DNA of 46,233 nucleotides from the sequence record MZ726796.1; one strand, written 5' to 3'. Each line of letters starts with the position of its first letter. Within the stretch, counting starts at the first letter, position 1. Both the position numbers and the translations under genes were made by a program. Origin of the DNA: Escherichia phage vB_EcoS_ASO78B. Positions 21,928-43,900 of this stretch are shown piece after piece. The notes under the pieces were generated by a model. The model had not been told where the DNA came from. It ran no database searches and was given only the letters and a program-made list of their open reading frames with translations.

Positions 21928-22003
21928 TGGCACACCATGCAGGATTCGAACCTGCAACCAATAGCTTAGAAGGCTACTGCTCTGTCCGTTGAGCTAATGG
22001 TGT
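21928..22003 (-). tRNA. tRNA-Arg (anticodon UCU)
   Basis: 76-nt cloverleaf read by hand: 7-bp acceptor stem ACACCAT/ATGGTGT, D-arm GCTC-AACGGACA-GAGC, anticodon loop CTTCTAA, T-arm GCAGG-TTCGAAT-CCTGC, encoded CCA. Confidence 0.8.
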
Positions 22004-22009
22004 TTGATT

Positions 22010-22097
22010 TGGCGGATAGTACAGGATTCGAACCTGTGAACCGTTTCCAGTTTATCGGTTAGCAACCGACTGCTTTCGGCCTCTCAGCCAACTATCC
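22010..22097 (-). tRNA. tRNA-Ser (anticodon GCU), type II
   Basis: 88 nt with long variable arm; acceptor GGATAGT/ACTATCC, anticodon loop TTGCTAA, T-arm ACAGG-TTCGAAT-CCTGT, encoded CCA. Confidence 0.75.
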
Positions 22098-27486: not shown

Positions 27487-27514
27487 AAAAAAGCCCCTCA
27501 CGGGGCTTTTTTTA
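27485..27514. terminator. bidirectional terminator
   Basis: A8-GCCCC-TCAC-GGGGC-T7 between tape measure stop and the convergent KilA-N gene stop. Confidence 0.75.
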
Positions 27515-28162
27515 AATCTTATCAGCGCATTTACGTACTACCCTCGGTATCGTTTCTTTCAGTTCATCCCATGAGTTGACCGCTTCCATATCCAGAAGCG
27601 TGACAAGAGACTTCTGGATGTCACTGCGTAACTGGTTAGTTTTTGCGTCCTGAGAGTCCCATGTGTCAAATCCGGTAACTTCACGGATATCTATCGACTC
27701 CTTTACTGCCTTTGCCACCTGAATGAAATGACCACTATGACCAATCCTGCCCTCTGTGCGTTCAAGCATTCTGCTGACGGCAGCATTAAGTTCCACGAAG
27801 CTTACCGCACCAATATTTCGCAATTCAACCTGCCTCTGCGTAATGAATCTGTCGATGACGAGGAAATGGAAATATGTGCTGTATTGCTCTGCTATATATA
27901 CAGCCAGATGCAAGCAAGCAAAAGTGGAACCATTTCTACCTCGTGTTGATTTTATTGCGCTATCGATACCAAGCTGCTTTTCGCACTCAGCCTTGAAATC
28001 CTTAAACGCATCAGTTGCCATTACCTGTCGTATTTCTCTCGTCCCCATCCCATTATCCAGTCGCCAGCGATTCATCTGGTTAACAAGCTCATTAACGTTA
28101 ATAAAATTTTCACGGTCGAAAGTGATCTCTCCGTACGGGAACTCTAATGTTTGCAGTTTCAT
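27512..28162 (-). CDS. KilA-N domain protein
   Basis: 216 aa; N-terminal region with INVNEL..W and IKSTRGRNGSTFACLHLAVYIAEQYSTYFHFLVIDRF fits the KilA-N pattern (RGG..GTW.HP.LA...A.WLSP.F.V.V). Confidence 0.5.
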   Translation of the reverse strand: MKLQTLEFPYGEITFDRENFINVNELVNQMNRWRLDNGMGTREIRQVMATDAFKDFKAECEKQLGIDSAIKSTRGRNGSTFACLHLAVYIAEQYSTYFHFLVIDRFITQRQVELRNIGAVSFVELNAAVSRMLERTEGRIGHSGHFIQVAKAVKESIDIREVTGFDTWDSQDAKTNQLRSDIQKSLVTLLDMEAVNSWDELKETIPRVVRKCADKI

Positions 28163-28336: not shown

Positions 28337-32135
<3,799 letters not shown>

Positions 32136-32174
32136 TACAATATACATCAAATTCACACAGGAGCATTTATTATA

Positions 32175-34211
32175 ATGGCTACCACACCAACCAATAAACC
32201 AATTCCGTCCGAAGACCCTCGTGATCTTAAATTTAATGCCGGGAAGATTGACGAGGTTGTAAGTGGCGACAACCACTACTACACCGACCGATTCGGCGTG
32301 CGCCGCTGGACGATTGCTGGGTTCCAGTACACTGCAGAAGAAGCTATCCGCAACTATGGCTACATCACGATGGATAGCTTCGAAGGTGGTGCGACACTGA
32401 CATTGCCTAATCAGGTATTGCGCTATGAGGCTACTGGCGAATATTACAGATGGGATGGTGCATTTCCTAAATCTGTAGGTGCTGGCTCAACTCCGGCAAC
32501 AACTGGAGGCATTGGTTTAGGCGCATGGTTAAGTGTTGGTGATGCTACTCTGAGGAGTGATTTAAATAAACCAAATGGCTTATCTTATATAGGAACTGCA
32601 TCATCAGTTTCTGAGTTATCATCAATATCAGGATCAATCGGCGATTCCATAATTCTTGATTCGTATGTGAGCGGGTTTAATCTTGGTGGTGGTATTATGG
32701 TAGCTGTTAGCGAGGATACCACTATAGACAATATTGTTACCTTCTCAGGAAGTGGGGTGGTATGGAAAAGAAAATTCTTCAACGGCACCGTGGACGTGTA
32801 TGATGCTGGCTATACTGGAACCGAAGATTTGGCGGTATTCATCAACAAAATAAACTCTGCCGGATTTGACTGTGTAGTTCCTGTTTCTGGTGAGATAACA
32901 ACACCGATTGTTTTAGACATAGCAAAAGGCGCACTTATTGGAAAAAATAAATGTACTTTAACAGAGTCTGCTTCCGTAACCGGTGACTACTACCTAACCA
33001 TTATTAATACAGGCGCGGATTACACTAACAGAGATGCAGTTAACGCAACTGCTTTGATGAGTGGCGTGTCATTCGTCGGGAAAGGTTCCAGGAAATTGGC
33101 TATCGGTGGTTCTACTAGTGGTGAAGTATCAGAGTTAAGAATCTCTAATAGTGGGTTTATCTCAACTGCCGGAATTGAGTTTCTTGATAATGCATATCGT
33201 ATCCTTTTTGATAAATGTACGTTGTCCAGAAGTTTTACAAATTCTGCTATTTTCAATTCACCAGCGAATTCAGGTGAGGTTATAAAATTTAATCACTGCT
33301 GGATGGTTGACAACGGCGGACCTTTCACGTTTGTTAATGGTCAATTTATATTCGATAGCTGCTCACTTCCTGCTGGTAAGAAAGCAGGTTATTTCGACCC
33401 TGCTATAGCACTATCTGATAATGCTACGGTTGTTTTTTCCAACGGAAATATAGAATATCAGCCTGGTCAGAGTTTTGTTGGCTTTACCGTTGCAGGAAGT
33501 TCAAGATTAAGCATCAAAGACTCAACAGTATTACTGCCTGTCGGATTTAGTTCTGTTCCTGTGGTAAGTAACGATGACGGCGTGGTTATTCTTAGCAATT
33601 GCTCCCTGCCTTTGTACGGGAACACTACTATTGCCACTGGATTCCCTACCAGGCAGTTAATTGGAGGCTCTAGCCGCAAAGTTATATCCAGAGGTTGCTT
33701 CCCTCGAGCAGGGTTTGTAATAGCTAACTGGGATTTAGGTGCAATAGTTAGTCCGTTTATAAATAGTTTAAGCAACGGTTCAGGACAGTTTTTATCTACA
33801 TCCAACTGGTCATTAGCTCAAACTGGGGTGGGTGTTGTTACGGCATCACATAACAATGATGTACCTAACGACCTTATGTTCACAACATCAATAATTATTA
33901 ATGTCCCATCCTCTGATGCTTCAGCTAACTTCACCCAATCGGTTATTGATTGTGAGCCTGGTAGATATTTCCAGTTTGGTTTTTGGGCTAAAAATACAAC
34001 AACCACCCTAGCGTCAATTAGATTCCTGGACCAGTCTGGAAATGCTGTAGCAGATTCCATAGGGTATAACATCCCAGCGGTAGGCACATTCAATTTTTAT
34101 GCCTTGGTGGATTCAGTCCCTCAAGGAGCATATAAGGCTGAGGTTAATTTTAATGTTGGTAAATCAATTGGCAGTTTAACAATACACAATGCAGTGTATG
34201 GTTTAATATAA
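32175..34211 (+). CDS. tail fibre / tailspike with beta-helix-like C-terminal domain
   Basis: 678 aa; conserved N-terminal anchor DPRDLKFNAGKIDE; C-terminal two-thirds visibly AT-rich with repetitive beta-strand-like segments. Confidence 0.7.
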   Translation: MATTPTNKPIPSEDPRDLKFNAGKIDEVVSGDNHYYTDRFGVRRWTIAGFQYTAEEAIRNYGYITMDSFEGGATLTLPNQVLRYEATGEYYRWDGAFPKSVGAGSTPATTGGIGLGAWLSVGDATLRSDLNKPNGLSYIGTASSVSELSSISGSIGDSIILDSYVSGFNLGGGIMVAVSEDTTIDNIVTFSGSGVVWKRKFFNGTVDVYDAGYTGTEDLAVFINKINSAGFDCVVPVSGEITTPIVLDIAKGALIGKNKCTLTESASVTGDYYLTIINTGADYTNRDAVNATALMSGVSFVGKGSRKLAIGGSTSGEVSELRISNSGFISTAGIEFLDNAYRILFDKCTLSRSFTNSAIFNSPANSGEVIKFNHCWMVDNGGPFTFVNGQFIFDSCSLPAGKKAGYFDPAIALSDNATVVFSNGNIEYQPGQSFVGFTVAGSSRLSIKDSTVLLPVGFSSVPVVSNDDGVVILSNCSLPLYGNTTIATGFPTRQLIGGSSRKVISRGCFPRAGFVIANWDLGAIVSPFINSLSNGSGQFLSTSNWSLAQTGVGVVTASHNNDVPNDLMFTTSIIINVPSSDASANFTQSVIDCEPGRYFQFGFWAKNTTTTLASIRFLDQSGNAVADSIGYNIPAVGTFNFYALVDSVPQGAYKAEVNFNVGKSIGSLTIHNAVYGLI

Positions 34212-34240
34212 AAAAACCCCGCTTCGGCGGGGTTAGTTTT
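34212..34240. terminator. bidirectional terminator
   Basis: A7-CCCCGC-TTCG-GCGGGG-TTAGTTTT between tail fibre and convergent SSB. Confidence 0.75.
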
Positions 34241-34244
34241 ATCA

Positions 34245-34730
34245 TCAGAAGGGTATTGAATCGTCGAAGTCCATTGGAGGCTCATTTCCTCCTTGTGGGC
34301 TTTGTTGTTTTGGTGGCTGTTGTTGTCTTTGCGGTTGCTGGCCTGATTGCTGGCGTGGTTGTTGCTGACCAGAATCATCACGTTTACCGCCAAGCATCTG
34401 CATGACGCCGCCCATCTGTGGAATGACAATCTCAGTGGTATATCGGTCTACGCCGTTGCTGTCAGTCCATTTTCTAGTGCGCAGCTGGCCTTCGATGTAA
34501 ACCTGAGAACCTTTGCGAAGGTATTCTCCTGCAACTTCTGCAAGTTTTCCGAAGATGACCACGCGATGCCATTCAGTCTGCTCTTTCTTTTCTCCTGTCT
34601 GCTTATCTTTCCACTGCTCAGATGTTGCAACTGAAAGATTGGCAATTGCAGAGCCTGATGCTGAATATTTAACTTCCGGGTAGTTACCGAGAGTGCCGAC
34701 AATAATTACTTTGTTTACGCCGCGTGCCAT
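34245..34730 (-). CDS. ssb: single-stranded DNA-binding protein
   Basis: OB-fold N-terminus ([11 protein letters not shown]), Gln/Pro-rich linker and acidic C-terminal tip DFDDSIPF. Confidence 0.9.
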
Positions 34731-34733
34731 TTA

Positions 34734-35393
34734 TTAAAATCCTTCAATTGGAGTTGGTTTATGTTCGGTTTTTTCTTCCTGCGGTTCTGGATGTTGAGGT
34801 TGCGGTTTGGCCAGTTTTGCAGGGTTGAATGATTCGCCTGATACCATGAATTTAGCCTTCATCTCTTGGTAAGCACCAACAATAACGCGAGTTGCTGCAT
34901 CGTCTCCACGGAACGCCTTGTATTCATCGCCATAGATTGAAGCTAACTCTTCCATGCTGGCTGCGTTGCGAATCAATGCGACAGCATCCTTTGGCGATTT
35001 GCGAGCAGCATTACCGTCATCATCAGCCTGAGCAATGCCAAACATTGCTGCGATGGAATATCTTCGCGCATATGTCATTGCCGAGCCGTACCCCTGCGCA
35101 TCCTTCTTAGCAACTGGCATTGGCATCACTGACGACATGTACTCACCGGACTCATGCATTATCGTTGTTTCAAGTTTAAGCACATCCATTGAATCACCAT
35201 CAATGGCATTCTGGATGATTATAAGTCCGTTCGCCTCAAGCGCAGGACGTATTGCATCAAGAAACGACTCAAGGTTTGCGTAGTTGCTTTTCAGGTGTGG
35301 GTTTTTTGCATTTTTCTTTGCTCCGCTACTCATCACCTTTCGAGCTTCAACCAGCGCCTTAATCAGGTTGGCTTTCTGTTCCGAGAAAATCAT
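34734..35393 (-). CDS. ERF-family single-strand annealing protein
   Basis: GSAMTYARRYSIAAMFGIAQADDDG resembles the P22 Erf core (GATSSYARKY..LFGIDDAKD). Confidence 0.7.
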   Translation of the reverse strand: MIFSEQKANLIKALVEARKVMSSGAKKNAKNPHLKSNYANLESFLDAIRPALEANGLIIIQNAIDGDSMDVLKLETTIMHESGEYMSSVMPMPVAKKDAQGYGSAMTYARRYSIAAMFGIAQADDDGNAARKSPKDAVALIRNAASMEELASIYGDEYKAFRGDDAATRVIVGAYQEMKAKFMVSGESFNPAKLAKPQPQHPEPQEEKTEHKPTPIEGF

Positions 35394-36862: not shown

Positions 36863-38720
36863 TAATGCGGTGCGTGATGCGTTTTGGCGCTTTAATCAAT
36901 GCCGCATACATCATGAATTGCTTGGCGTTTTGGCATTTCAGTATTTTCCCCGCCATTGACTTATCATCAAGGTGAGGAAAGACCGCCTTTGCCTTGAACA
37001 TGTTTTTCATGTGAGTTGCGCCACCATAAGGGTAGAAAACTTCGTTAGCCCAGCCTTCTTTGCCATCACAACGATTAATCCAGTAGCGATACAAAATACC
37101 TTCTCCATCCTTAGTTAACTGGACTTTGAAATCCATAACATCAGCCCACTCATTATCGGTATACGCACGCTCATTAAGTGCCGCATTCGGGTCGCGCAAA
37201 ACATGATCGCAATGTCGGCAATAACGCGCAGTGGGGTCGTTTTTAGTGCCGCAGCCATCATCAAAAATACGGATTCCGTGCTTATCGAAACCGCAACGGA
37301 TGTAACTGAAAAACTCCTCGCAACGACCGTCTGGCGATAATGCATCTTTGCCAATGCAGCGGCGCGCATATGGGCTGTTCATTGTCCCGCACTTCGGACA
37401 CGGAACCTGTTCACCACTGCGTTTTGAACGTTGCGCTTCAGCCTCTTCAAGGATTGGGTCTTCATACAGCTGACCAAGCTCAAACATCGTGCCTGAGAAA
37501 TCAAGAACCAGATGATCTTCTTTATGATACCCGGCATCAATTTGCTCTTTCTTCAGCAAGCGCATCCCGCGACCAAGCAACTGGACAAGGAGAGTTAGCG
37601 ACATTATTTTTCGTAATATGCAGCTCGTATCCCATAGCGGAATGTTGACACCAGTGGTAAGGGCTGCTATCTGGAATGTGAATTTTTTGCGCCCGGTGTA
37701 TGCATCTTTTAGAGCCTTCCTTCTGGCTTTTGGCCCCATATCTTCTGTAACTATTGAATAGCTTCCTTCAGGTAGGTATTTTGCCGCCTCCTGACAGTGC
37801 TTCTTGCCAGCACATGTAATCAATACTCCGTTTCTGTTTTTAGTCAGCTCCATAACCTTTAGCATTATTTTCTGCGTCAGCGTACCTTGTTCAAGGATTT
37901 CTTTCTGCATCTGCTTGAGCTGCTCGGTGGTAAAGTCCTGTGTGCCATCAACATCTGAACCATGAAACTCGGAAAGGTCATAATGCAGACTATCAACATC
38001 ATGAAGACCAAAAATTGTTGGCACAAGAAAGCCGTTTTCAACCATGTACTTGGTGTCTATATTGATAATCTCTTTCTTCCAGAAAGCGCCTTTTATTGAT
38101 GTAGTTCCGCGAAACGGTGAGCCTGTATAACCTATTATTCTCAACTCATGGCCGTGCTTATCTTTGCACCTTTTCATTAGCTCATTAATTATCACTGCAT
38201 ACTGCGTATCACCATCATTAACAACATCAATGTCATTAACCATATGATTTTCATCGATAAGCAGGAATCTTGGGCAAAAGTCAGAAAGCGCACCTTTTGC
38301 AATAACATTCCCTGATTCATCATTTTTATCAAACAAAGCATTTACAACAGTACCCTCAGAACCACAAATTATTGGATACGTAGAACTTTTCCTCCCCAAC
38401 GAAGCGCTGAATAGCGAGTTTCTTACACCAAGCGACCATAGCTCTTCCGCATCTTGCTCCACTATTTCGCCCTGTCTTGATAAAATCATCCCTGAATAGC
38501 CCATTTCCTGAAAACGCTTTGCTATCATGGCAATCATCAGTGACTTTCCGCTACCGACGCTTGCTGTTACATAGCTTGGACCAACATAATGGCGGATCAC
38601 ATCACCAGTTAACTTATATATCAACCACTGATATGGTCTTGGCTCGATATCACCAGTATCCAGATAAGATTTCAGTAGATTAATATCAATCTCTGAAATC
38701 ATCTTGTCTATTTTATGCAT
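36798..38720 (-). CDS. SF2 DNA helicase (DExH box) with C-terminal zinc ribbons
   Basis: Walker A SVGSGKS, LLIDENH DExH box, C-terminal CPKCG...C and CRHC pairs. Confidence 0.8.
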   Translation of the reverse strand: MHKIDKMISEIDINLLKSYLDTGDIEPRPYQWLIYKLTGDVIRHYVGPSYVTASVGSGKSLMIAMIAKRFQEMGYSGMILSRQGEIVEQDAEELWSLGVRNSLFSASLGRKSSTYPIICGSEGTVVNALFDKNDESGNVIAKGALSDFCPRFLLIDENHMVNDIDVVNDGDTQYAVIINELMKRCKDKHGHELRIIGYTGSPFRGTTSIKGAFWKKEIINIDTKYMVENGFLVPTIFGLHDVDSLHYDLSEFHGSDVDGTQDFTTEQLKQMQKEILEQGTLTQKIMLKVMELTKNRNGVLITCAGKKHCQEAAKYLPEGSYSIVTEDMGPKARRKALKDAYTGRKKFTFQIAALTTGVNIPLWDTSCILRKIMSLTLLVQLLGRGMRLLKKEQIDAGYHKEDHLVLDFSGTMFELGQLYEDPILEEAEAQRSKRSGEQVPCPKCGTMNSPYARRCIGKDALSPDGRCEEFFSYIRCGFDKHGIRIFDDGCGTKNDPTARYCRHCDHVLRDPNAALNERAYTDNEWADVMDFKVQLTKDGEGILYRYWINRCDGKEGWANEVFYPYGGATHMKNMFKAKAVFPHLDDKSMAGKILKCQNAKQFMMYAALIKAPKRITHRINDKGRDIIHRKDFAGEQSEAA

Positions 38721-39241
38721 TATTTTACCCTACCAAATTCACCATGATACTTTTTTGATGCTTCCGCATAAACTTTTGCTGCTTCTTCTTTTGTATCATA
38801 TCTGCCGAGCCATATTTTTTTATTATTTACATGTATAGAGCAAGTCCATTTTTTTGTTTGCTTACAAAAACCAACCCCTTTTACACCGGATGTGTTATGG
38901 CTTGGAATCCTCATGTTTCTTAAATTTCCATTAAAGTTTGTTTCTCTTAGGTTTTCTATCCTGTTATTCAATCTATTACCATCTTTATGGTCTATTATTA
39001 ACTCAGGCCAATAACCATGCACTAAAGCCCAAATTATTCTATGAACCTTTATATCAACCCCTAAAAATCCAACCTGAAGATATCCACTTACAGTCTTCGA
39101 ACCTGCAATAGCGCCACGTTTAACCCTGTTTGTTGTTGTTCTTTTCCATATGAGATTTATTCCGTCATATGAAAAATACTCCCGCAGCGTGGATACTGGT
39201 ATTGACTTCTCTTTTAACTTCATCAATTCGAAATCATTCAC
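38720..39241 (-). CDS. HNH-AP2 homing endonuclease (paralog of 548-1060)
   Basis: IDHKDGNRLNNRIENLRE HNH motif and SGVKGVGF..GRY AP2-like region; 1-nt overlap with helicase start. Confidence 0.8.
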   Translation of the reverse strand: MNDFELMKLKEKSIPVSTLREYFSYDGINLIWKRTTTNRVKRGAIAGSKTVSGYLQVGFLGVDIKVHRIIWALVHGYWPELIIDHKDGNRLNNRIENLRETNFNGNLRNMRIPSHNTSGVKGVGFCKQTKKWTCSIHVNNKKIWLGRYDTKEEAAKVYAEASKKYHGEFGRVK

Positions 39242-40699: not shown

Positions 40700-42276
40700 T
40701 ACAACCCCCTCATAAATCTCATGCGCTTAACGGCAGCAGAAAGATAATTTCTAACAGTTGAGTTCATCCGCAGACCATCCCATGAACCATCACTACACAT
40801 CTTAATTGCTCTTGGATTATCCCTGTCCAGCATTAGTGGTGAATGTTTGTTCTCCTCAATGGCAAGAAGAACTTCATAAACAAATTTATCCGGCGTTAAT
40901 GTGATATTATTCGAGTCAGCAGAATTGATTATCTTTTCAACTCTGTCACGGCACAGCTTGTTCTTTATAACAGACAAATAAGGCGTTTTAATGAATGCCT
41001 GCGATTCACAAATTCGCTTTATTTTTTCAACAATGTTCGACCACTCAGTATTCTCAAGCCCATCAAATGCCTGTTCACCCTCAAGGAATCTTTTCAGCCC
41101 TGCGAGGTGTTCAAGAACCGTGAGATAACCCCACTCGATATGCTCCGTCGTCACTGATGGTGTCATCCCCCGCCGACTTGACAGATCGGTATACGCCGCC
41201 AGAGTTGCAAGATCGACAATCATTAGACCCATACGAGGGATAACATCGCCAACAACACCATCGCAATCACCAAGCTCACTTTCCAGTTTCATAGACAGAT
41301 ATCTGTGCAGTTTTTTCGCATTATCATCAGCCCACACAACGTTAGTTTTCGCGGTAAGAACCCTACCTTTCCACTCATTGATTATTTTTCTTGAAAGCGT
41401 ACCACTCACTTCCACATCCTTCATTGCTGGCATTTCCTCACCAGCAAGATGACCAAGCTGGAACAGCACGCGCCCCATACCGCCATCCTTCTGCCATGAA
41501 CGCGCAGCATCTATTCCCTGCTCTGGCGTGACAGTAATCAGCGGAACAAATTTTGCGTTTTCAATTCCACCGTCTTTTGTTGCAAGTTCGTACTCATTCA
41601 TTGCCGACTTTAGCGCGCGCCCAACGCTGTGGTCCATCATCGCAAGGCGCTTATAATCTATGACTCCTTTCCCATCATCGCCACCAGTAAGTGGCACTAT
41701 CCATCCCTCAGCACTTGCTGCCGCCATGATGCGTTTTGGGTTTTGTTCCCAAGTAAGGTTTTCAAGCAACTCCTTGATTATTGGTCTGTTAGGCACCCAC
41801 ACTCCGCCATCAGTTAGGCCTCTATACCACGCCATCGTACCGCCAAGATATGCATTGCGCGGGTTGTTCCAGTCTTCAAGATGTTGCTTGTCATCGTTCA
41901 CAACGTAGAGCAAAGACCCACCTCCGGCAATCAGGTCTAACTGCATCTGTTTCGTCGATGTTGATTTAGATGCACAAACTCTGGAACCTATTCCCAGCTC
42001 ATTGGCATATGCCCTGACGAAACTCACCGGTGCACCCTTACCTGCACCAGAGCGAGCTACCAGAAATATGCCAGTATTGCAGATACTACCTGTTGGACCA
42101 ATCAAGTATCGTCCAGCCATCGCCTGAGCAAGGCCCAAAGCGCCAGTTAATCGATATCTTTCCCCTCCCTCACGGCGCTCAAACCCCCTTGCGATCTCAT
42201 CCATAAACTCACCAAGTGCCCCGGGAGTCTCCCGATTTATGCCCATAGCCAGAGACTCAAAATCAATCGAACTCAT
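40699..42276 (-). CDS. large hypothetical protein (525 aa)
   Basis: start taken at MSSIDF (ATG 42276) with GGAGGGTG RBS; GAGKG segment is not a canonical Walker A; ATGA-coupled to the DUF3850 gene. Confidence 0.5.
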   Translation of the reverse strand: MSSIDFESLAMGINRETPGALGEFMDEIARGFERREGGERYRLTGALGLAQAMAGRYLIGPTGSICNTGIFLVARSGAGKGAPVSFVRAYANELGIGSRVCASKSTSTKQMQLDLIAGGGSLLYVVNDDKQHLEDWNNPRNAYLGGTMAWYRGLTDGGVWVPNRPIIKELLENLTWEQNPKRIMAAASAEGWIVPLTGGDDGKGVIDYKRLAMMDHSVGRALKSAMNEYELATKDGGIENAKFVPLITVTPEQGIDAARSWQKDGGMGRVLFQLGHLAGEEMPAMKDVEVSGTLSRKIINEWKGRVLTAKTNVVWADDNAKKLHRYLSMKLESELGDCDGVVGDVIPRMGLMIVDLATLAAYTDLSSRRGMTPSVTTEHIEWGYLTVLEHLAGLKRFLEGEQAFDGLENTEWSNIVEKIKRICESQAFIKTPYLSVIKNKLCRDRVEKIINSADSNNITLTPDKFVYEVLLAIEENKHSPLMLDRDNPRAIKMCSDGSWDGLRMNSTVRNYLSAAVKRMRFMRGL

Positions 42277-42568
42277 CAATACACCCTCCATACGCGCAAG
42301 AATTTACCCGGGATAACACCATGTTTCACCGTTAACACAGCACCCACCCTGTCAGCCTCAATTTTTAGCGCTTTCTGAAGTGACGCCACTGTCATCTGAA
42401 AACCTCGCTCTATGTCGTATGCGTAGCACCCATCTCTGCCACCAATCAAAATTGAAGTTGAATACCCGTTCTCAAAGTAAAACTGACACCCATCAGGAAC
42501 GGTAAGATTATTTATCACGTCGTTAGCAAGCGATGTCGTAACAGGGAATATCGGCGCGCAACTCATAC
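42276..42568 (-). CDS. hypothetical protein
   Basis: about 97 aa from MSCAPIF; 1-nt overlap with the 525-aa gene. Confidence 0.4.
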
Positions 42569-42573
42569 TCACC

Positions 42574-42804
42574 TCACTCAACTCGCTTAATGTGCAAAAC
42601 TTCATCGAAATATGAGCACGTTCTGAATTTCATCCCGAAATCCTCACCAACCCTTCCGAGACACGCGCGAAATCTTTCAACAGACAGCCCTTTATCTGCA
42701 ATATCCTCATAAGAAATCGAATTAACCTGACCAACATCAATATGTTTTGCAATGCGATACACGAACTCCATCTTTGAACCGTCACGATACATTTTGTTTC
42801 TCAT
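42574..42804 (-). CDS. hypothetical protein (first gene of the minus-strand module)
   Basis: 76 aa from MRNKMY with GGAGG RBS; next to the AT-rich control region. Confidence 0.4.
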   Translation of the reverse strand: MRNKMYRDGSKMEFVYRIAKHIDVGQVNSISYEDIADKGLSVERFRACLGRVGEDFGMKFRTCSYFDEVLHIKRVE

Positions 42805-42967
42805 AGTAACCTCCATCCGCATTCCAATAGTAACTATAGATAAAAAATAAAATTAACGCAACACAAAACAGGTCTAACCAGCAACAACAGCTACCACAAT
42901 TAACAACTGGTAAGACCACCATCTCATATCTGATATGTGTGGATGGTGCCTGTCGTTCAATTTGCAC

Positions 42968-43400
42968 TCGATTTTTACCTAATTTACCGTATATTTATTG
43001 GTCAGTTTTTTGCATAACTAATTGATTTATATGATTTTACCGGTTTTACCGGAACTCTAATGAGTATTTTCATCATTGAGAGTGTCAGTATATTAATTGG
43101 TCTAATTTTTAAAGAACTCCAATAAAATCAATATATTAATATAAGAAAGTAACTTACTTACTTATATAGGATTTACCGGGTAAAACCGGTAACTCCTCCG
43201 CAGCCCGCGTCATTACTGGATTGATTTTTACCACCTGTAGGTAAATACAGTAGTTTTTAAGTCAGGATTGTTTTTGTAAGATGTTGATTACCGGTACTTT
43301 ATTTGAAAAACCGGGATTTACCGGGTTTTTGTGGTGTGATTAATAATCGCGCAATTGGTCATGTTTCACCAGAACCCACTAATGCGACACCTGAAAATCA
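42968..43400. repeat. AT-rich divergent control region with ACCGG iterons
   Basis: at least 7 copies of TTTACCGG/ACCGG[GT] at 43034-43051, 43171-43190, 43285-43296, 43306-43329; inverted TTTACC..GGTAAA at 43225-43245; no ORF. Confidence 0.6.
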
Positions 43401-43401
43401 T

Positions 43402-43430
43402 ATTGACGTAGAGTCACAACTGATGTAGAT
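43402..43430 (+). promoter_or_regulatory. sigma70 promoter for the right-end + strand genes
   Basis: TTGACG, 17-nt spacer, TAGATT, 30 nt upstream of ATG 43461; both hexamers sit within copies of the recurring motif. Confidence 0.5.
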
Positions 43431-43460
43431 TGAACTCATCGAAACAACGAGGGTGAAGAG

Positions 43461-43646
43461 ATGAGCAAAGAAAGCACGTACAGCATCGACCAGATGAAGT
43501 TATTCAGCGATATATGCATGGCATTATCACAACAGGTTCCGAGCCTTCCTGCTGACATGCGTTCAAATGCAATCATTGATGCAGCAAACATGATTTGCGA
43601 GGCTTATGCGATAACTGAAGATGAATATAAGGATTCGAAGAAATGA
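43461..43646 (+). CDS. hypothetical protein
   Basis: 61 aa; GAGGGTGAAGAG RBS. Confidence 0.4.
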   Translation: MSKESTYSIDQMKLFSDICMALSQQVPSLPADMRSNAIIDAANMICEAYAITEDEYKDSKK

Positions 43647-43738
43647 CAGGCGCAACACTCGGGCTTATCGCCAGCCTGGTTATCGTGGCATTCATCATTA
43701 TCGCAGTGGCAGTTTCAAAATCAGGGTATAAGGAGTGA
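43643..43738 (+). CDS. small single-TM peptide (31 aa)
   Basis: Hand-translated MTGATLGLIASLVIVAFIIIAVAVSKSGYKE; ATGA-coupled to the upstream gene. Confidence 0.3.
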   Translation: MTGATLGLIASLVIVAFIIIAVAVSKSGYKE

Positions 43739-43741
43739 AAA

Positions 43742-43900
43742 ATGAGCAACAAACCAATCCAACCAACAGAAGAAATGATTGAGGCGGGTATCCGTGAAGT
43801 TATTGAAAACTTCGATATCGACTACCTCACTGATGATGAGCTAAGCGATGCCGTTGTGTTCATCTGGCAGGCAATGTATCAGGCGCACGTGGAGAAATAA
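43742..43900 (+). CDS. small acidic hypothetical protein (52 aa)
   Basis: Hand-translated; AGGAG RBS 6 nt upstream. Confidence 0.35.
   Translation: MSNKPIQPTEEMIEAGIREVIENFDIDYLTDDELSDAVVFIWQAMYQAHVEK

What the first reader, a model, noticed from the sequence alone, without database searches (positions are those of the whole stretch)
32175..34211. Mosaic tail fibre: conserved anchor plus AT-rich, probably acquired, receptor-binding domain
The first roughly 130 codons have the conserved DPRDLKFNAGKIDE-type anchor and typical base composition. The remaining about 550 codons are markedly AT-rich and encode repetitive beta-strand-like segments consistent with a beta-helix tailspike or depolymerase fold. 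This points to recent horizontal swapping of the host-range determinant.
Basis: seen in the sequence. Interest (0 to 1): 0.45.

Follow-up and report, generated by a model that had tools for sequence, protein, structure and literature searches.

The report
Skatevirus tailspike with swapped O78-binding module
This is an ordinary modular phage tailspike gene: a genus-specific attachment end joined, at a known recombination hotspot, to a horizontally circulating enzyme module that most likely recognises and cuts the E. coli O78 surface sugar.

Summary
ORF 32175-34211 (+) encodes a 678-aa tailspike in a Skatevirus-like siphophage genome.

- **Residues 1-120** are the genus-type N-terminus: the Sf11 gp13-type anchor helices plus a PF18668 'D2' head domain.
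- **Residues 121-678** are a different module. They are 80.6% identical to the body of CBA120 TSP4 (PDB 5W6H), the tailspike shown to cleave E. coli O78 O-antigen. They are 92-95% identical to spikes of phages isolated on O78 hosts, in other genera.

Backbone DNA homology stops at gene nt ~360-390 and resumes exactly at the stop codon. GC falls from 50% to 40.7% at that junction. A codon-aware test gives z = -8.9, the most extreme of 39 segments tested in the window.

The module is equally AT-rich in every carrier. The composition therefore marks a mobile module rather than the date of transfer.

The cassette is bounded by the conserved end of D2 and a terminator hairpin. Both match published recombination motifs. 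Related contigs show several separate exchanges.

This is a new member of a well-known kind, and interest is low.

The parts
32175..34211 (+). Tailspike gene (678 aa), the single receptor-binding protein gene, directly downstream of the J-like hub gene
   Evidence: ORF. PHROG 4217 'tail protein' E=5e-252 over aa 57-678, and PHROG 15455 over aa 1-151. Same locus as Sf11 gp13.
32175..32360 (+). Residues 1-62: genus-specific virion anchor (N-terminal helices that dock on the distal tail protein)
   Evidence: 79-100% identical to Skatevirus-group spikes, with no hit in other O78-module carriers. PDB 9occ_G (Sf11 gp13) matches aa 1-176 at E=4e-69. Sf11 gp13 residues 4-59 bind the gp17 adaptor helix through Arg16 and Lys19 (PMC12724387); R16 and K19 are present here. 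AF2 confidence here is low (pLDDT <50 for residues 1-64).
32361..32534 (+). Residues 63-120: D2-type 'head' domain (Pfam Tail_spike_N)
   Evidence: PF18668 scores 69.9 bits against a cut-off of 25, over aa 63-123. 79-95% identical to Skatevirus copies and 51-57% to the D2 of CBA120 TSP4 (422-478), phiHAO78-1, PD06 and AVIO78A.
32450..32534 (+). Left homology arm and crossover zone (gene nt 276-360; WDGAFPK..GSTP..TGG.G.GAW.SVGDA), shared by both parental families
   Evidence: Megablast to O78-module carriers starts at gene nt 276, while Skatevirus homology runs to nt ~368-393. Identity steps up sharply at nt 360/361 in all comparisons. [quoted passage not shown]
32535..32606 (+). Residues 121-144: start of the acquired module, the neck region (TLRSDLNKPNGLSYIG...)
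   Evidence: Aligns to CBA120 TSP4 from residue 479. The neck and D3' positions come from PMC7506556 (D3' = TSP4 503-557). AF2 predicts a helix at 123-129. Boundaries are approximate.
32607..32771 (+). Residues ~145-199: D3' insertion domain (approximate)
   Evidence: Offset mapping to TSP4 503-557 (PMC7506556). AF2 pLDDT is 85-90 here.
32772..33794 (+). Residues ~200-540: D3 parallel beta-helix, the presumed O-antigen glycosidase domain (approximate ends)
   Evidence: E=0 to 5W6H. The AF2 model is a run of short strands. Foldseek hits carry tailspike or depolymerase entry names. Invariant acidic residues in 17 homologues: D218, D232, D248, E320, E368, D379, E427. The catalytic residues are not known.
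33795..34208 (+). Residues ~541-678: D4 C-terminal beta-sandwich, carbohydrate-binding-module-like (approximate start)
   Evidence: AF2 strands at 546-677 with pLDDT 80-90. Foldseek matches CBM4-2 and XG34 over ~150 columns. TSP4 D4 is described as a beta-sandwich resembling carbohydrate-binding proteins (PMC7506556).
34215..34234 (.). Bidirectional terminator hairpin AACCCCGC-TTCG-GCGGGGTT between the convergent spike and ssb genes; right homology arm of the cassette
   Evidence: Terminator-like on both strands. Conserved in all Skatevirus relatives whatever their C-terminal module, and also present after the PD06 spike; a similar hairpin follows CBA120 orf212. Consistent with the 20-nt downstream 'motif three', a predicted terminator, in PMC10408124.
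28337..28807 (+). Distal tail protein (156 aa) carrying the adaptor helix to which the spike anchor should bind
   Evidence: PDB 9occ_C (Sf11 gp17) E=1e-99 over residues 3-155. E128, E135, E146 and D151 correspond to Sf11 E129, E136, E147 and E152 (PMC12724387).
29649..32135 (+). J-like baseplate hub protein (828 aa), upstream neighbour. Its last ~335 nt fall inside the 99-100% tract shared with L004
   Evidence: PHROG 469 E=6e-253. Same length as Sf11 gp14 BHUB2 (PMC12724387). Sliding identity.
34245..34730 (-). ssb gene, right-hand backbone flank. Its 3' end travelled with the module into phiHAO78-1
   Evidence: PHROG 44 E=4e-61. Backbone homology resumes at 34208-34213. Window 34212-34322 is found downstream of the phiHAO78-1 spike.

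Best explanation
The gene encodes the single receptor-binding protein of a Skatevirus-group siphophage: a presumably homotrimeric tailspike built from two evolutionarily independent parts.

**N-terminal part (residues 1-120).** This is the genus's own attachment piece. The N-terminal helices (about residues 4-59) should bundle with the adaptor helix of the distal tail protein (window 28337-28807), as seen in the Sf11 cryo-EM structure. A D2-type head domain follows.

**C-terminal part (residues 121-678).** This is a mobile 'body' module: neck, D3', D3 parallel beta-helix and D4 beta-sandwich. It belongs to the CBA120 TSP4 type, which binds and cleaves the E. coli O78 O-antigen. The virion would recognise O78 LPS, digest its way through the O-antigen layer and so reach the outer membrane. 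The module sets host range.

**How the module got there.** It sits in this genome by homologous recombination between two short conserved arms. One is the 3' end of the D2 coding sequence (gene nt 276-360). The other is the terminator hairpin just after the stop codon (34215-34234). The same cassette circulates among Skatevirus, Nonanavirus, Justusliebigvirus, Kuttervirus, Gamaleyavirus, Kagunavirus and T7/SP6-like phages, with more distant copies in P22-like prophages. Its low GC (40-41%; GC3 31-33%) travels with it.

**Shown here:** the module boundaries, the homologies, the fold class, the compositional anomaly, and the discordant relationships among relatives.

**Inferred:** O78 specificity, enzymatic activity, trimer state, the docking mode and the recombination mechanism.
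For: **Backbone identity.** Flanks match Skatevirus-group phages (KFS-SE2, Bas77-81, swi2 and others) at 82-91%.

**Boundaries.**
- Backbone homology ends at window 32542-32567 and resumes at 34208-34213.
- Identity to O78-module carriers jumps at gene nt 360/361: phiHAO78-1 from 0.69 to 0.99, L005 from 0.80 to 1.00.
- The GC change point is at nt 354.

**Module identity.**
- 5W6H at E=0.
- Residues 121-678 are 80.6% identical to TSP4 479-1036, 95.2% to phiHAO78-1 (host recorded as APEC), 91.9% to AVIO78A (host recorded as O78) and 86.9% to PD06.

**Function of the homologue.**
- TSP4 cleaves O78 O-antigen (PMC8825819, PMC10408124).
- Grafting TSP4 480-1036 onto another phage's TSP4 N-terminus gave a chimeric phage that was isolated on an O78 strain and is tabulated as targeting E. 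coli O78 (PMC9965104). That engineered junction is one residue from the natural one here.
- Kuttervirus O78 subtypes were defined at >75% aa identity (PMC10408124).

**Fold.** AF2 plus Foldseek.

**Anchor.** 9occ_G and 9occ_C homologies with conserved salt-bridge residues (PMC12724387).

**Composition.** z = -8.9 after controlling for amino acids. The module is 39-41% GC in all carriers.

**Multiple exchanges.**
- L004 shares a 99-100% tract spanning the whole gene, inside 88-94% flanks.
- L005 shares only the C-terminal module (96%), with the anchor at 83%.
- The tree of the C-terminal module does not follow the anchor or the genus.

**Many modules on one anchor.** Dozens of protein clusters, many on ~46-48 kb contigs, carry the same N-terminus fused to other C-terminal domains: Beta_helix, Pectate_lyase_3, GDSL, BNR_2, Peptidase_G2, Peptidase_S74.

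**Cassette arms.**; published motifs in PMC10408124.

**Genus biology.** Skatevirus phages use one enzymatic tailspike, encoded next to the J-like hub gene, with O-antigen proposed as their only and terminal receptor (PMC11990801).
Against: - No experiment on this protein. O78 specificity rests on 80-95% identity to characterised or host-typed homologues, and a few substitutions can alter glycan specificity.
- The TSP4 catalytic residues are, as far as the papers read here state, not experimentally defined. The active site could not be checked.
- The AF2 model is only moderate (mean pLDDT 72; residues 1-64 below 50) and monomeric.
- Six protein clusters already combine the Skatevirus anchor with this module at 76-99% identity. 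The original acquisition by the genus may therefore be old, and this genome could be donor rather than recipient.
- The C-terminal module of another Skatevirus (KFS-SE2) is also somewhat GC-poor (43.6%), so part of the GC dip may be general to this locus.
Confidence: 0.88

Rival explanations
1. The combination is ancestral in this lineage. The O78 module has been inherited vertically within a Skatevirus sub-lineage for a long time, other Skateviruses swapped theirs, and this genome (or a close relative) has been a donor to other phages rather than a recent recipient.
For: - Six clusters of 678-aa proteins with the Skatevirus anchor and this module range from 76% to 99% identity, five of them on ~47-kb contigs. 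The pairing has had time to diversify.
- phiHAO78-1 carries ~110 nt of Skatevirus terminator plus the ssb 3' end after its spike gene. That indicates transfer out of a Skatevirus.
Against: - Copies of the module on Skatevirus anchors fall in at least three separate places in the module tree, interleaved with Nonanavirus, Justusliebigvirus and T7-like copies.
- Anchor and module identities are discordant between the same pairs of genomes: L005 has the anchor at 83% and the module at 96%; L004 has the gene at 99-100% and flanks at 88-94%.
- Codon composition is still far from the backbone (z = -8.9).
Confidence: 0.25
2. The AT-richness is not a sign of foreign origin. It would reflect the amino-acid content of beta-helix domains, or weak codon selection in receptor-binding domains generally.
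For: - The C-terminal module of another Skatevirus (KFS-SE2, unrelated in sequence) is also below genome GC (43.6% against 46.6%; GC3 35.7%).
- Several replication genes in the window also show negative codon-aware z scores, from -3 to -4.
Against: - With the amino-acid sequence held fixed, expected GC is 47.1% and observed is 40.7% (z = -8.9), the most extreme segment in the window. The only comparable one is an HNH homing endonuclease, itself a mobile gene.
- The same 40-41% GC is kept in carriers whose flanks range from 43% to 51% GC.
- The DNA-homology boundaries, which are independent evidence, coincide with the GC step.
Confidence: 0.1
3. It is a capsule (K-antigen) depolymerase, or has a specificity other than O78. 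For example, it might have drifted to a related O-antigen.
For: - Structural neighbours after 5W6H are Klebsiella capsule depolymerases (K2-2 TSP, Depo32, DpK2).
- One carrier's host is recorded as O78:K80 (EC1-UPM).
- There is 19% amino-acid divergence from TSP4, and the 3' half of the module is the more variable half among relatives.
Against: - TSP4 was shown to cleave O78 O-antigen, and its body gave a chimeric phage tabulated as targeting E. coli O78 (PMC8825819, PMC9965104).
- The closest relatives (92-95%) come from phages whose records name avian-pathogenic or O78 hosts.
- Identity to the Klebsiella enzymes is only 13-17%.
Confidence: 0.12

Closest known systems
CBA120 (Kuttervirus) tailspike protein 4, orf213; PDB 5W6H (TSP4 enzymatically active domain)
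   Same: Residues 121-678 align end to end with TSP4 479-1036 at 80.6% identity (80% in DNA). The neck, D3', D3 beta-helix and D4 architecture is the same, and the presumed O78 O-antigen glycosidase function is the same (PMC8825819, PMC7506556).
   Different: TSP4 is 1036 aa. Its N-terminus has a baseplate anchor, three gp10-like XD domains and D1, which build a branched four-spike complex on a myovirus. Here only a D2-type domain is shared (54%), and a 62-residue siphovirus anchor replaces the rest.
Shigella phage Sf11 (Cedarrivervirus) tailspike gp13 with distal tail protein gp17; PDB 9OCC
   Same: The N-terminal 120 residues are ~80% identical, and R16 and K19 are conserved. The gene position after the 828-aa hub protein is the same. 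The partner DTP is 1e-99 similar, with the acidic adaptor-helix residues kept (PMC12724387).
   Different: Sf11's C-terminal module is Sf6-like (S. flexneri O-antigen) and unrelated to this one (no BLASTP hit). Sf11 gp17 is 457 aa with an extra appendage, whereas the DTP here is 156 aa.
Spikes of Escherichia phages phiHAO78-1 (T7/SP6-like) and vB_EcoS_AVIO78A (Nonanavirus)
   Same: These are the closest C-terminal modules outside the genus: 95% and 92% aa identity, 93% in DNA. The left breakpoint is the same. Hosts are recorded as APEC E19057 and E. coli O78.
   Different: The N-terminal anchors are unrelated, and so are the virion types. phiHAO78-1 additionally carries a fragment of the Skatevirus ssb 3' end.
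BASEL Skatevirus isolates Bas77-81 (O16-dependent tailspikes)
   Same: Same genus-level backbone (83-91% in DNA), the same spike locus and anchor, and a single enzymatic tailspike as the only receptor-binding protein (PMC11990801).
   Different: Their C-terminal modules target O16. DNA homology to this gene stops at about gene nt 390.
O-antigen-specific RBP subtypes and recombination motifs described by the 2023 Virology Journal study (PMC10408124)
   Same: The same principle applies: the anchor is conserved per genus and the receptor-binding domain clusters per serogroup. That study defines an O78 subtype, conserved motifs at the anchor end, and a terminator motif downstream of the gene.
   Different: Skatevirus is not among the eight genera analysed there. 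This adds one more genus carrying the O78 subtype.

Membership tests
CBA120 TSP4-type (O78 subtype) tailspike body | Full-length sequence homology to the TSP4 neck-D3'-D3-D4 region | tested here: met
   phmmer E=0 to 5w6h_A over aa 57-678. BLASTP gives 80.6% over 558 aa, TSP4 479-1036. PHROG 4217 E=5e-252.
CBA120 TSP4-type (O78 subtype) tailspike body | Right-handed parallel beta-helix catalytic domain followed by a beta-sandwich D4 | tested here: met
   AF2 model (mean pLDDT 72; body mostly 75-93) shows a run of short strands. Foldseek puts 5W6H first, followed by entries named as tailspikes or depolymerases. The C-terminal ~150 aa match CBM4-2-type modules.
CBA120 TSP4-type (O78 subtype) tailspike body | At least 75% aa identity, the threshold used to call Kuttervirus O78 RBP subtypes (as cited in PMC10408124) | tested here: met
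   80.6% to CBA120 TSP4. 92-95% to spikes of phages from O78 or avian-pathogenic hosts.
CBA120 TSP4-type (O78 subtype) tailspike body | Cleavage of E. coli O78 O-antigen, and infection dependent on O78 | not testable with these tools
   Known for TSP4 (PMC8825819, PMC9965104). Needs an enzyme assay and a host-range panel for this protein.
CBA120 TSP4-type (O78 subtype) tailspike body | Homotrimer with inter-subunit active sites | not tested
   Only a monomer was predicted. The TSP4 catalytic residues are not defined in the papers read. Invariant acidic residues D218, D232, D248, E320, E368, D379 and E427 are candidates only.
Skatevirus/Cedarrivervirus tailspike (Sf11 gp13-type anchor) | N-terminal helical anchor homologous to gp13 residues 4-59, with Arg16 and Lys19 | tested here: met
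   9occ_G E=4e-69 over aa 1-176. 79% identity over aa 1-62. R16 and K19 are present in DPRDLKF.
Skatevirus/Cedarrivervirus tailspike (Sf11 gp13-type anchor) | Partner distal tail protein with an acidic adaptor helix | tested here: met
   Window 28337-28807 matches 9occ_C at E=1e-99. E128, E135, E146 and D151 align to Sf11 E129, E136, E147 and E152.
Skatevirus/Cedarrivervirus tailspike (Sf11 gp13-type anchor) | Encoded immediately downstream of the 828-aa J-like hub gene and convergent with ssb | tested here: met
   The synteny is identical in KFS-SE2 and L004-L007. Sf11 shares the hub-then-spike order but has different downstream genes.
Skatevirus/Cedarrivervirus tailspike (Sf11 gp13-type anchor) | Six trimers mounted on the DTP ring of the virion | not testable with these tools
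   Needs electron microscopy of this phage.
Pfam PF18668 Tail_spike_N (TSP1/Gp66 N-terminal domain; the D2 head module) | Score above the Pfam gathering threshold | tested here: met
   69.9 bits against a cut-off of 25, aa 63-123.
Capsule (K-antigen) depolymerase | Closest characterised homologues act on capsular polysaccharide | tested here: not met
   The closest characterised homologue acts on LPS O-antigen (TSP4). Capsule depolymerases appear only as 13-17% identical structural neighbours.

The most novel reading that the evidence does not exclude
The locus may be a self-contained host-range exchange cassette, with this Skatevirus lineage as an active hub. The module would be bounded by two portable homology arms: the end of D2 and a bidirectional terminator. 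It lies next to the phage's own SSB, Erf-like annealase and exonuclease VIII genes, which could catalyse short-homology exchange during co-infection. An ssb fragment left behind the spike gene of the T7/SP6-like phage phiHAO78-1 would be a fossil showing direct Skatevirus-to-podovirus transfer. A second breakpoint inside the beta-helix (gene nt ~1170) would mean that sub-domain shuffling also occurs, possibly tuning specificity within O78-like glycans.
Probability: 0.3. Interest if true: 0.4.

Novelty: new member of a known kind. Interest (0 to 1): 0.22.

Why it matters
The practical value is host prediction and engineering. The gene predicts that this uncharacterised Skatevirus-group phage infects E. 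coli O78, a major avian-pathogenic serogroup. It also defines a natural, precisely mapped graft point (residue 120|121, equivalent to TSP4 478|479) and two flanking homology arms, which could be used to retarget small siphophages. It adds Skatevirus to the genera known to carry the O78 receptor-binding subtype. It also gives one case where the direction of an inter-family transfer can be inferred. Conceptually it confirms established knowledge about tailspike modularity rather than changing it.

Tried and rejected
- **Local Pfam copy.** It found only PF18668. The beta-helix body has no match there, although precomputed annotations list PF27114 Phage_tail_beta weakly. Fold assignment was therefore taken from PDB homology and Foldseek.
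- **Tandem DNA repeats in the gene.** None were found. 'Repetitive' applies only to structure.
- **Close copy in complete E. coli genomes (prophage origin).** Megablast found no match in 5,426 genomes. Prophage homologues exist only at ~58-62% aa identity (P0024, P0027).
- **Simple GC window statistic.** The C-terminal module is in the lowest 3% but is not the lowest region. This was replaced by a codon-aware test.
- **Minus-strand ORFs inside the gene (67-112 aa).** No evidence for them, and they were not pursued.
- **Papers on phiHAO78-1.** None are in the library.
- **Catalytic residues of TSP4.** The papers read do not define them, so no active-site check was possible.
- **Capsule depolymerase reading.** Rejected as the primary reading (see rivals).
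Full report
**1. Observation**

The ORF at 32175-34211 (+) exists as described. It encodes 678 aa beginning MATTPTNKPIPSEDPRDLKFNAGKIDE.

- The window is 46.6% GC. The first 390 nt of the gene are 49.5% GC and the remaining 1647 nt are 40.6% (GC3 43.8% against 32.6%). The maximum-likelihood change point is at gene nt 354.
- The C-terminal part lies in the lowest 3% of equal-sized windows. Two other regions (37.7-39 kb and 42.2-43.5 kb) are lower still.
- To separate codon choice from amino-acid content, I computed the GC expected for each long ORF from its protein sequence and the codon usage of the other ORFs. The C-terminal 558 codons should be 47.1% GC and are 40.7% (z = -8.9). That is the most extreme of 39 segments tested. 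The first 120 codons are unremarkable (z = -1.0).
- The only comparable outlier (z = -7.0) is an HNH-AP2 homing endonuclease at 38720-39241, itself a mobile gene.
- There are no tandem DNA repeats in the gene.

The shift is real and non-random, but moderate in size.

**2. The genome**

The flanks match Skatevirus-group siphophages (KFS-SE2, swi2, Bas77-81, Sf11 and many Salmonella phages) at roughly 82-91% DNA identity. No GenBank phage in the collection is closer than about 89-91% over about 75% of the first 24 kb.

The gene order is:
- tape measure protein;
- a 156-aa distal tail protein (DTP);
- a 156-aa hub protein;
- the 828-aa J-like hub protein;
- this gene.

It is convergent with ssb, an Erf-like annealase and exonuclease VIII.

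The BASEL study states that Skatevirus phages carry a single enzymatic tailspike, encoded directly after the J-like hub gene. It proposes O-antigen as their only and terminal receptor (PMC11990801).

**3. Anatomy of the protein**

The protein has three layers.

*Residues 1-62.*
- Found only in Skatevirus-group spikes (79-100% identity).
- They match Sf11 gp13 in PDB 9OCC (E = 4e-69 over residues 1-176).
- In the Sf11 cryo-EM structure, gp13 residues 4-59 form helices that bundle with an adaptor helix of the DTP gp17. Salt bridges link gp13 Arg16 and Lys19 to gp17 Glu129, 136, 147 and 152 (PMC12724387).
- R16 and K19 are present here.
- The window's DTP (28337-28807) is 1e-99 similar to gp17 residues 3-155, with E128, E135, E146 and D151 at the corresponding positions.

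*Residues 63-120.*
- This is the Pfam Tail_spike_N domain (PF18668; 69.9 bits against a cut-off of 25).
- By offset it corresponds to the D2 'head' module of CBA120 tailspikes (PMC7506556).
- It is 79-95% identical within the genus. It is still 51-57% identical to the D2 of other carriers of the C-terminal module.

*Residues 121-678.*
- They align end to end with CBA120 TSP4 residues 479-1036 (80.6% identity).
- They are 95.2% identical to phiHAO78-1, 91.9% to AVIO78A and 86.9% to PD06.
- They have no detectable similarity to the C-terminal parts of KFS-SE2 or Sf11 spikes.

**4. Fold**

- phmmer gives E = 0 to PDB 5W6H, titled the 'enzymatically active domain' of TSP4.
- An AlphaFold2 model built from 17 homologues has mean pLDDT 72. 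The body is mostly 75-93, and the anchor is below 50. It is a long series of short strands.
- Foldseek against the PDB returns 5W6H first. Next come K2-2 TSP, Kp7 gp52, Depo32, DpK2, CBA120 TSP2 and TSP3, and Acinetobacter tailspikes. The entry names are tailspikes or depolymerases.
- The last ~150 residues also match CBM4-2-type carbohydrate-binding modules.
- This agrees with the published description of TSP4: neck, a D3' insertion (TSP4 503-557, about residues 145-199 here), the D3 beta-helix, and a large D4 beta-sandwich resembling carbohydrate-binding proteins (PMC8825819, PMC7506556).

**5. Function of the module**

- TSP4 is reported to cleave the E. coli O78 O-antigen and to be responsible for CBA120's infection of O78 strains (PMC8825819, PMC10408124, PMC9965104).
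- An engineered phage carried SPTD1 TSP4 residues 1-479 fused to CBA120 TSP4 residues 480-1036. It was isolated on an O78 strain and is tabulated as targeting E. coli O78 (PMC9965104). That graft point is one residue from the natural junction here (120|121, equivalent to TSP4 478|479).
- The closest relatives come from phages whose records name avian-pathogenic or O78 hosts: phiHAO78-1 on APEC E19057, AVIO78A on 'E. coli O78 Strain ECL23026', and EC1-UPM on O78:K80.

I therefore infer O78 O-antigen binding and cleavage, with confidence about 0.8. This was not tested. The catalytic residues of TSP4 are not defined in the papers I read. Invariant acidic residues (D218, D232, D248, E320, E368, D379, E427) are only candidates.

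**6. Mosaic boundaries**

*Left boundary.*
- Megablast of 31800-32620 against phages shows that 139 of the 156 matching records, largely Skatevirus-group phages, match up to window 32542-32567 (gene nt 368-393) and no further.
- Carriers of the O78 module match from gene nt 276 onward.
- The overlap, nt 276-360, encodes WDGAFPK..GSTP..TGG.G.GAW.SVGDA and is conserved in both families.
- In 30- and 90-nt windows, identity steps sharply at nt 360/361. phiHAO78-1 goes from 0.69 to 0.99, L005 from 0.80 to 1.00, and L007 from 0.66 to 0.93.
- This coincides with the GC change point at nt 354.

*Right boundary.*
- Backbone homology resumes at window 34208-34213, that is, at the stop codon.
- Four bases after the stop codon lies a bidirectional terminator hairpin, AACCCCGC-TTCG-GCGGGGTT, at 34215-34234.
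- The hairpin is conserved in all Skatevirus relatives whatever their C-terminal module. It also follows the PD06 spike, and a similar one follows CBA120 orf212.

*Published parallels.* These two arms appear to correspond to motifs described in PMC10408124. [quoted passage not shown] It proposes them as recombination hotspots across lytic genera. I could not compare the motif sequences themselves.

**7. Evidence for repeated exchange**

The protein database holds six clusters of 678-aa proteins with the same anchor-plus-module architecture at 76-99% identity. Five of them are on ~47-kb contigs. I fetched four of those contigs.

- **L004.** A ~2.6-kb tract (window ~31,800-34,400) covers the whole spike gene. 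It is 99-100% identical, embedded in flanks that are 88-94% identical. This is a recent exchange of the entire gene between congeners.
- **L005.** Only the C-terminal module is close (96%). The anchor is 83% and the flanks are 86-92%.
- **L006 and L007.** Gene nt 361-1170 are 88-100% identical, apart from one 78% window in L006. Nt 1171-2037 are only 63-83% identical. This indicates a further breakpoint inside the beta-helix.

A neighbour-joining tree of the C-terminal module (no bootstrap) places the Skatevirus-anchored copies in at least three positions. They are interleaved with T7-like, Nonanavirus and Justusliebigvirus copies.

phiHAO78-1 carries about 110 nt homologous to the Skatevirus terminator plus the 3' end of ssb (window 34212-34322), just downstream of its spike gene. 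This implies that this podovirus received the module from a Skatevirus. An assembly artefact in that record was not excluded.

Dozens of other protein clusters, many on ~46-48 kb contigs, share only the N-terminal ~120-260 residues. They carry other C-terminal domains: Beta_helix, Pectate_lyase_3, GDSL, BNR_2, Peptidase_G2, Peptidase_S74.

**8. What the AT-richness means**

- The module is 39-41% GC (GC3 31-33%) in every carrier examined. The flanking DNA of those carriers ranges from 43% (CBA120 locus) to 51% (phiHAO78-1 locus).
- The low GC is therefore a signature that travels with the module. It is not a clock for this particular transfer.
- It is closest to the composition of the CBA120 locus, where the TSP4 N-terminal part has GC3 of 31%. 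This is compatible with long residence in genomes of that type, but that is inference.
- The unrelated C-terminal module of KFS-SE2 is also somewhat GC-poor (43.6%). Part of the dip may be general to modules at this locus.

**9. Comparison with the known, and novelty**

The protein works like, and passes the testable membership criteria of, two families:
- the CBA120 TSP4-type O78 tailspike body;
- the Sf11 gp13-type Skatevirus anchor.

The principle is well established: the anchor is conserved per genus, the receptor-binding domain is shared per serogroup, and exchange happens at conserved motifs (PMC10408124, PMC9965104, PMC11990801).

What is new is modest:
- Skatevirus is not among the eight genera analysed for O-antigen RBP subtypes in PMC10408124.
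- No GenBank phage in the collection carries this full-length combination. The best single-record coverage is 86%.
- The ssb fossil gives a direction for one inter-family transfer.

No close copy exists in 5,426 complete E. coli genomes.

**10. Verdict**

- it is a tailspike, not a fibre;
- the likely substrate is O-antigen, not capsule;
- the junction is at codon ~120;
- the AT-richness marks a mobile module rather than recency.

This is a new member of a known kind. Interest is 0.22.

Noticed in passing
L002:5763-5871 (phiHAO78-1, PP197160.1), matching window 34212-34322: A T7/SP6-like O78 phage carries about 110 nt of the Skatevirus terminator plus the 3' end of ssb directly after its spike gene. 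This looks like a fossil of module transfer out of a Skatevirus. An assembly artefact at that genome end was not excluded.
   Followed up: partly
window ~33345 (gene nt ~1170): There is a second identity step inside the beta-helix. Gene nt 361-1170 are 88-100% identical in L005, L006 and L007 (one 78% window in L006). Nt 1171-2037 drop to 63-83% in L006 and L007. This suggests sub-domain mosaicism within the receptor-binding module.
   Followed up: partly
window 31800-34400 against L004 (Logan ERR13324403 contig, 47.6 kb): A ~2.6-kb tract covers the end of the hub gene, the whole spike gene and the terminator. It is 99-100% identical, within flanks that are 88-94% identical. This points to recent whole-gene exchange between related phages.
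   Followed up: yes
window 38720-39241 (-): A 173-aa HNH_3 + AP2 homing endonuclease at 34.9% GC. It is the second most AT-biased ORF in the codon-aware test (z = -7.0). It sits next to the helicase gene.
   Followed up: partly
window 34734-35393 (-): The recombination module is itself mosaic. This genome has an Erf-like annealase, where the otherwise syntenic contigs L004-L007 carry a 345-346-aa AAA_24 protein. There is no DNA homology across 34830-35390.
   Followed up: partly
window 28337-28807 (+): The distal tail protein is 156 aa here, as in KFS-SE2. Sf11 gp17 is 457 aa with a large extra appendage. Only the first ~155 residues, including the adaptor helix, are shared.
   Followed up: partly
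window 27512-28162 (-): An opposite-strand 216-aa ORF lies between the tape measure and DTP genes. It has a weak KilA-N match (21.3 bits, below the 23.8 cut-off). At the same site L006 carries a DUF723/T5orf172 homing-endonuclease-like gene, so this looks like a variable insertion site.
   Followed up: no
window 21928-22097 (-): Two tRNA genes, tRNA-Arg(tct) and tRNA-Ser(gct). KFS-SE2 is annotated with tRNA-Arg and tRNA-Met at the corresponding place.
   Followed up: no
window 42250-43900: A low-GC stretch (38-39%) without any ORF of 120 aa or more. It is presumably a cluster of small early genes and was not examined.
   Followed up: no
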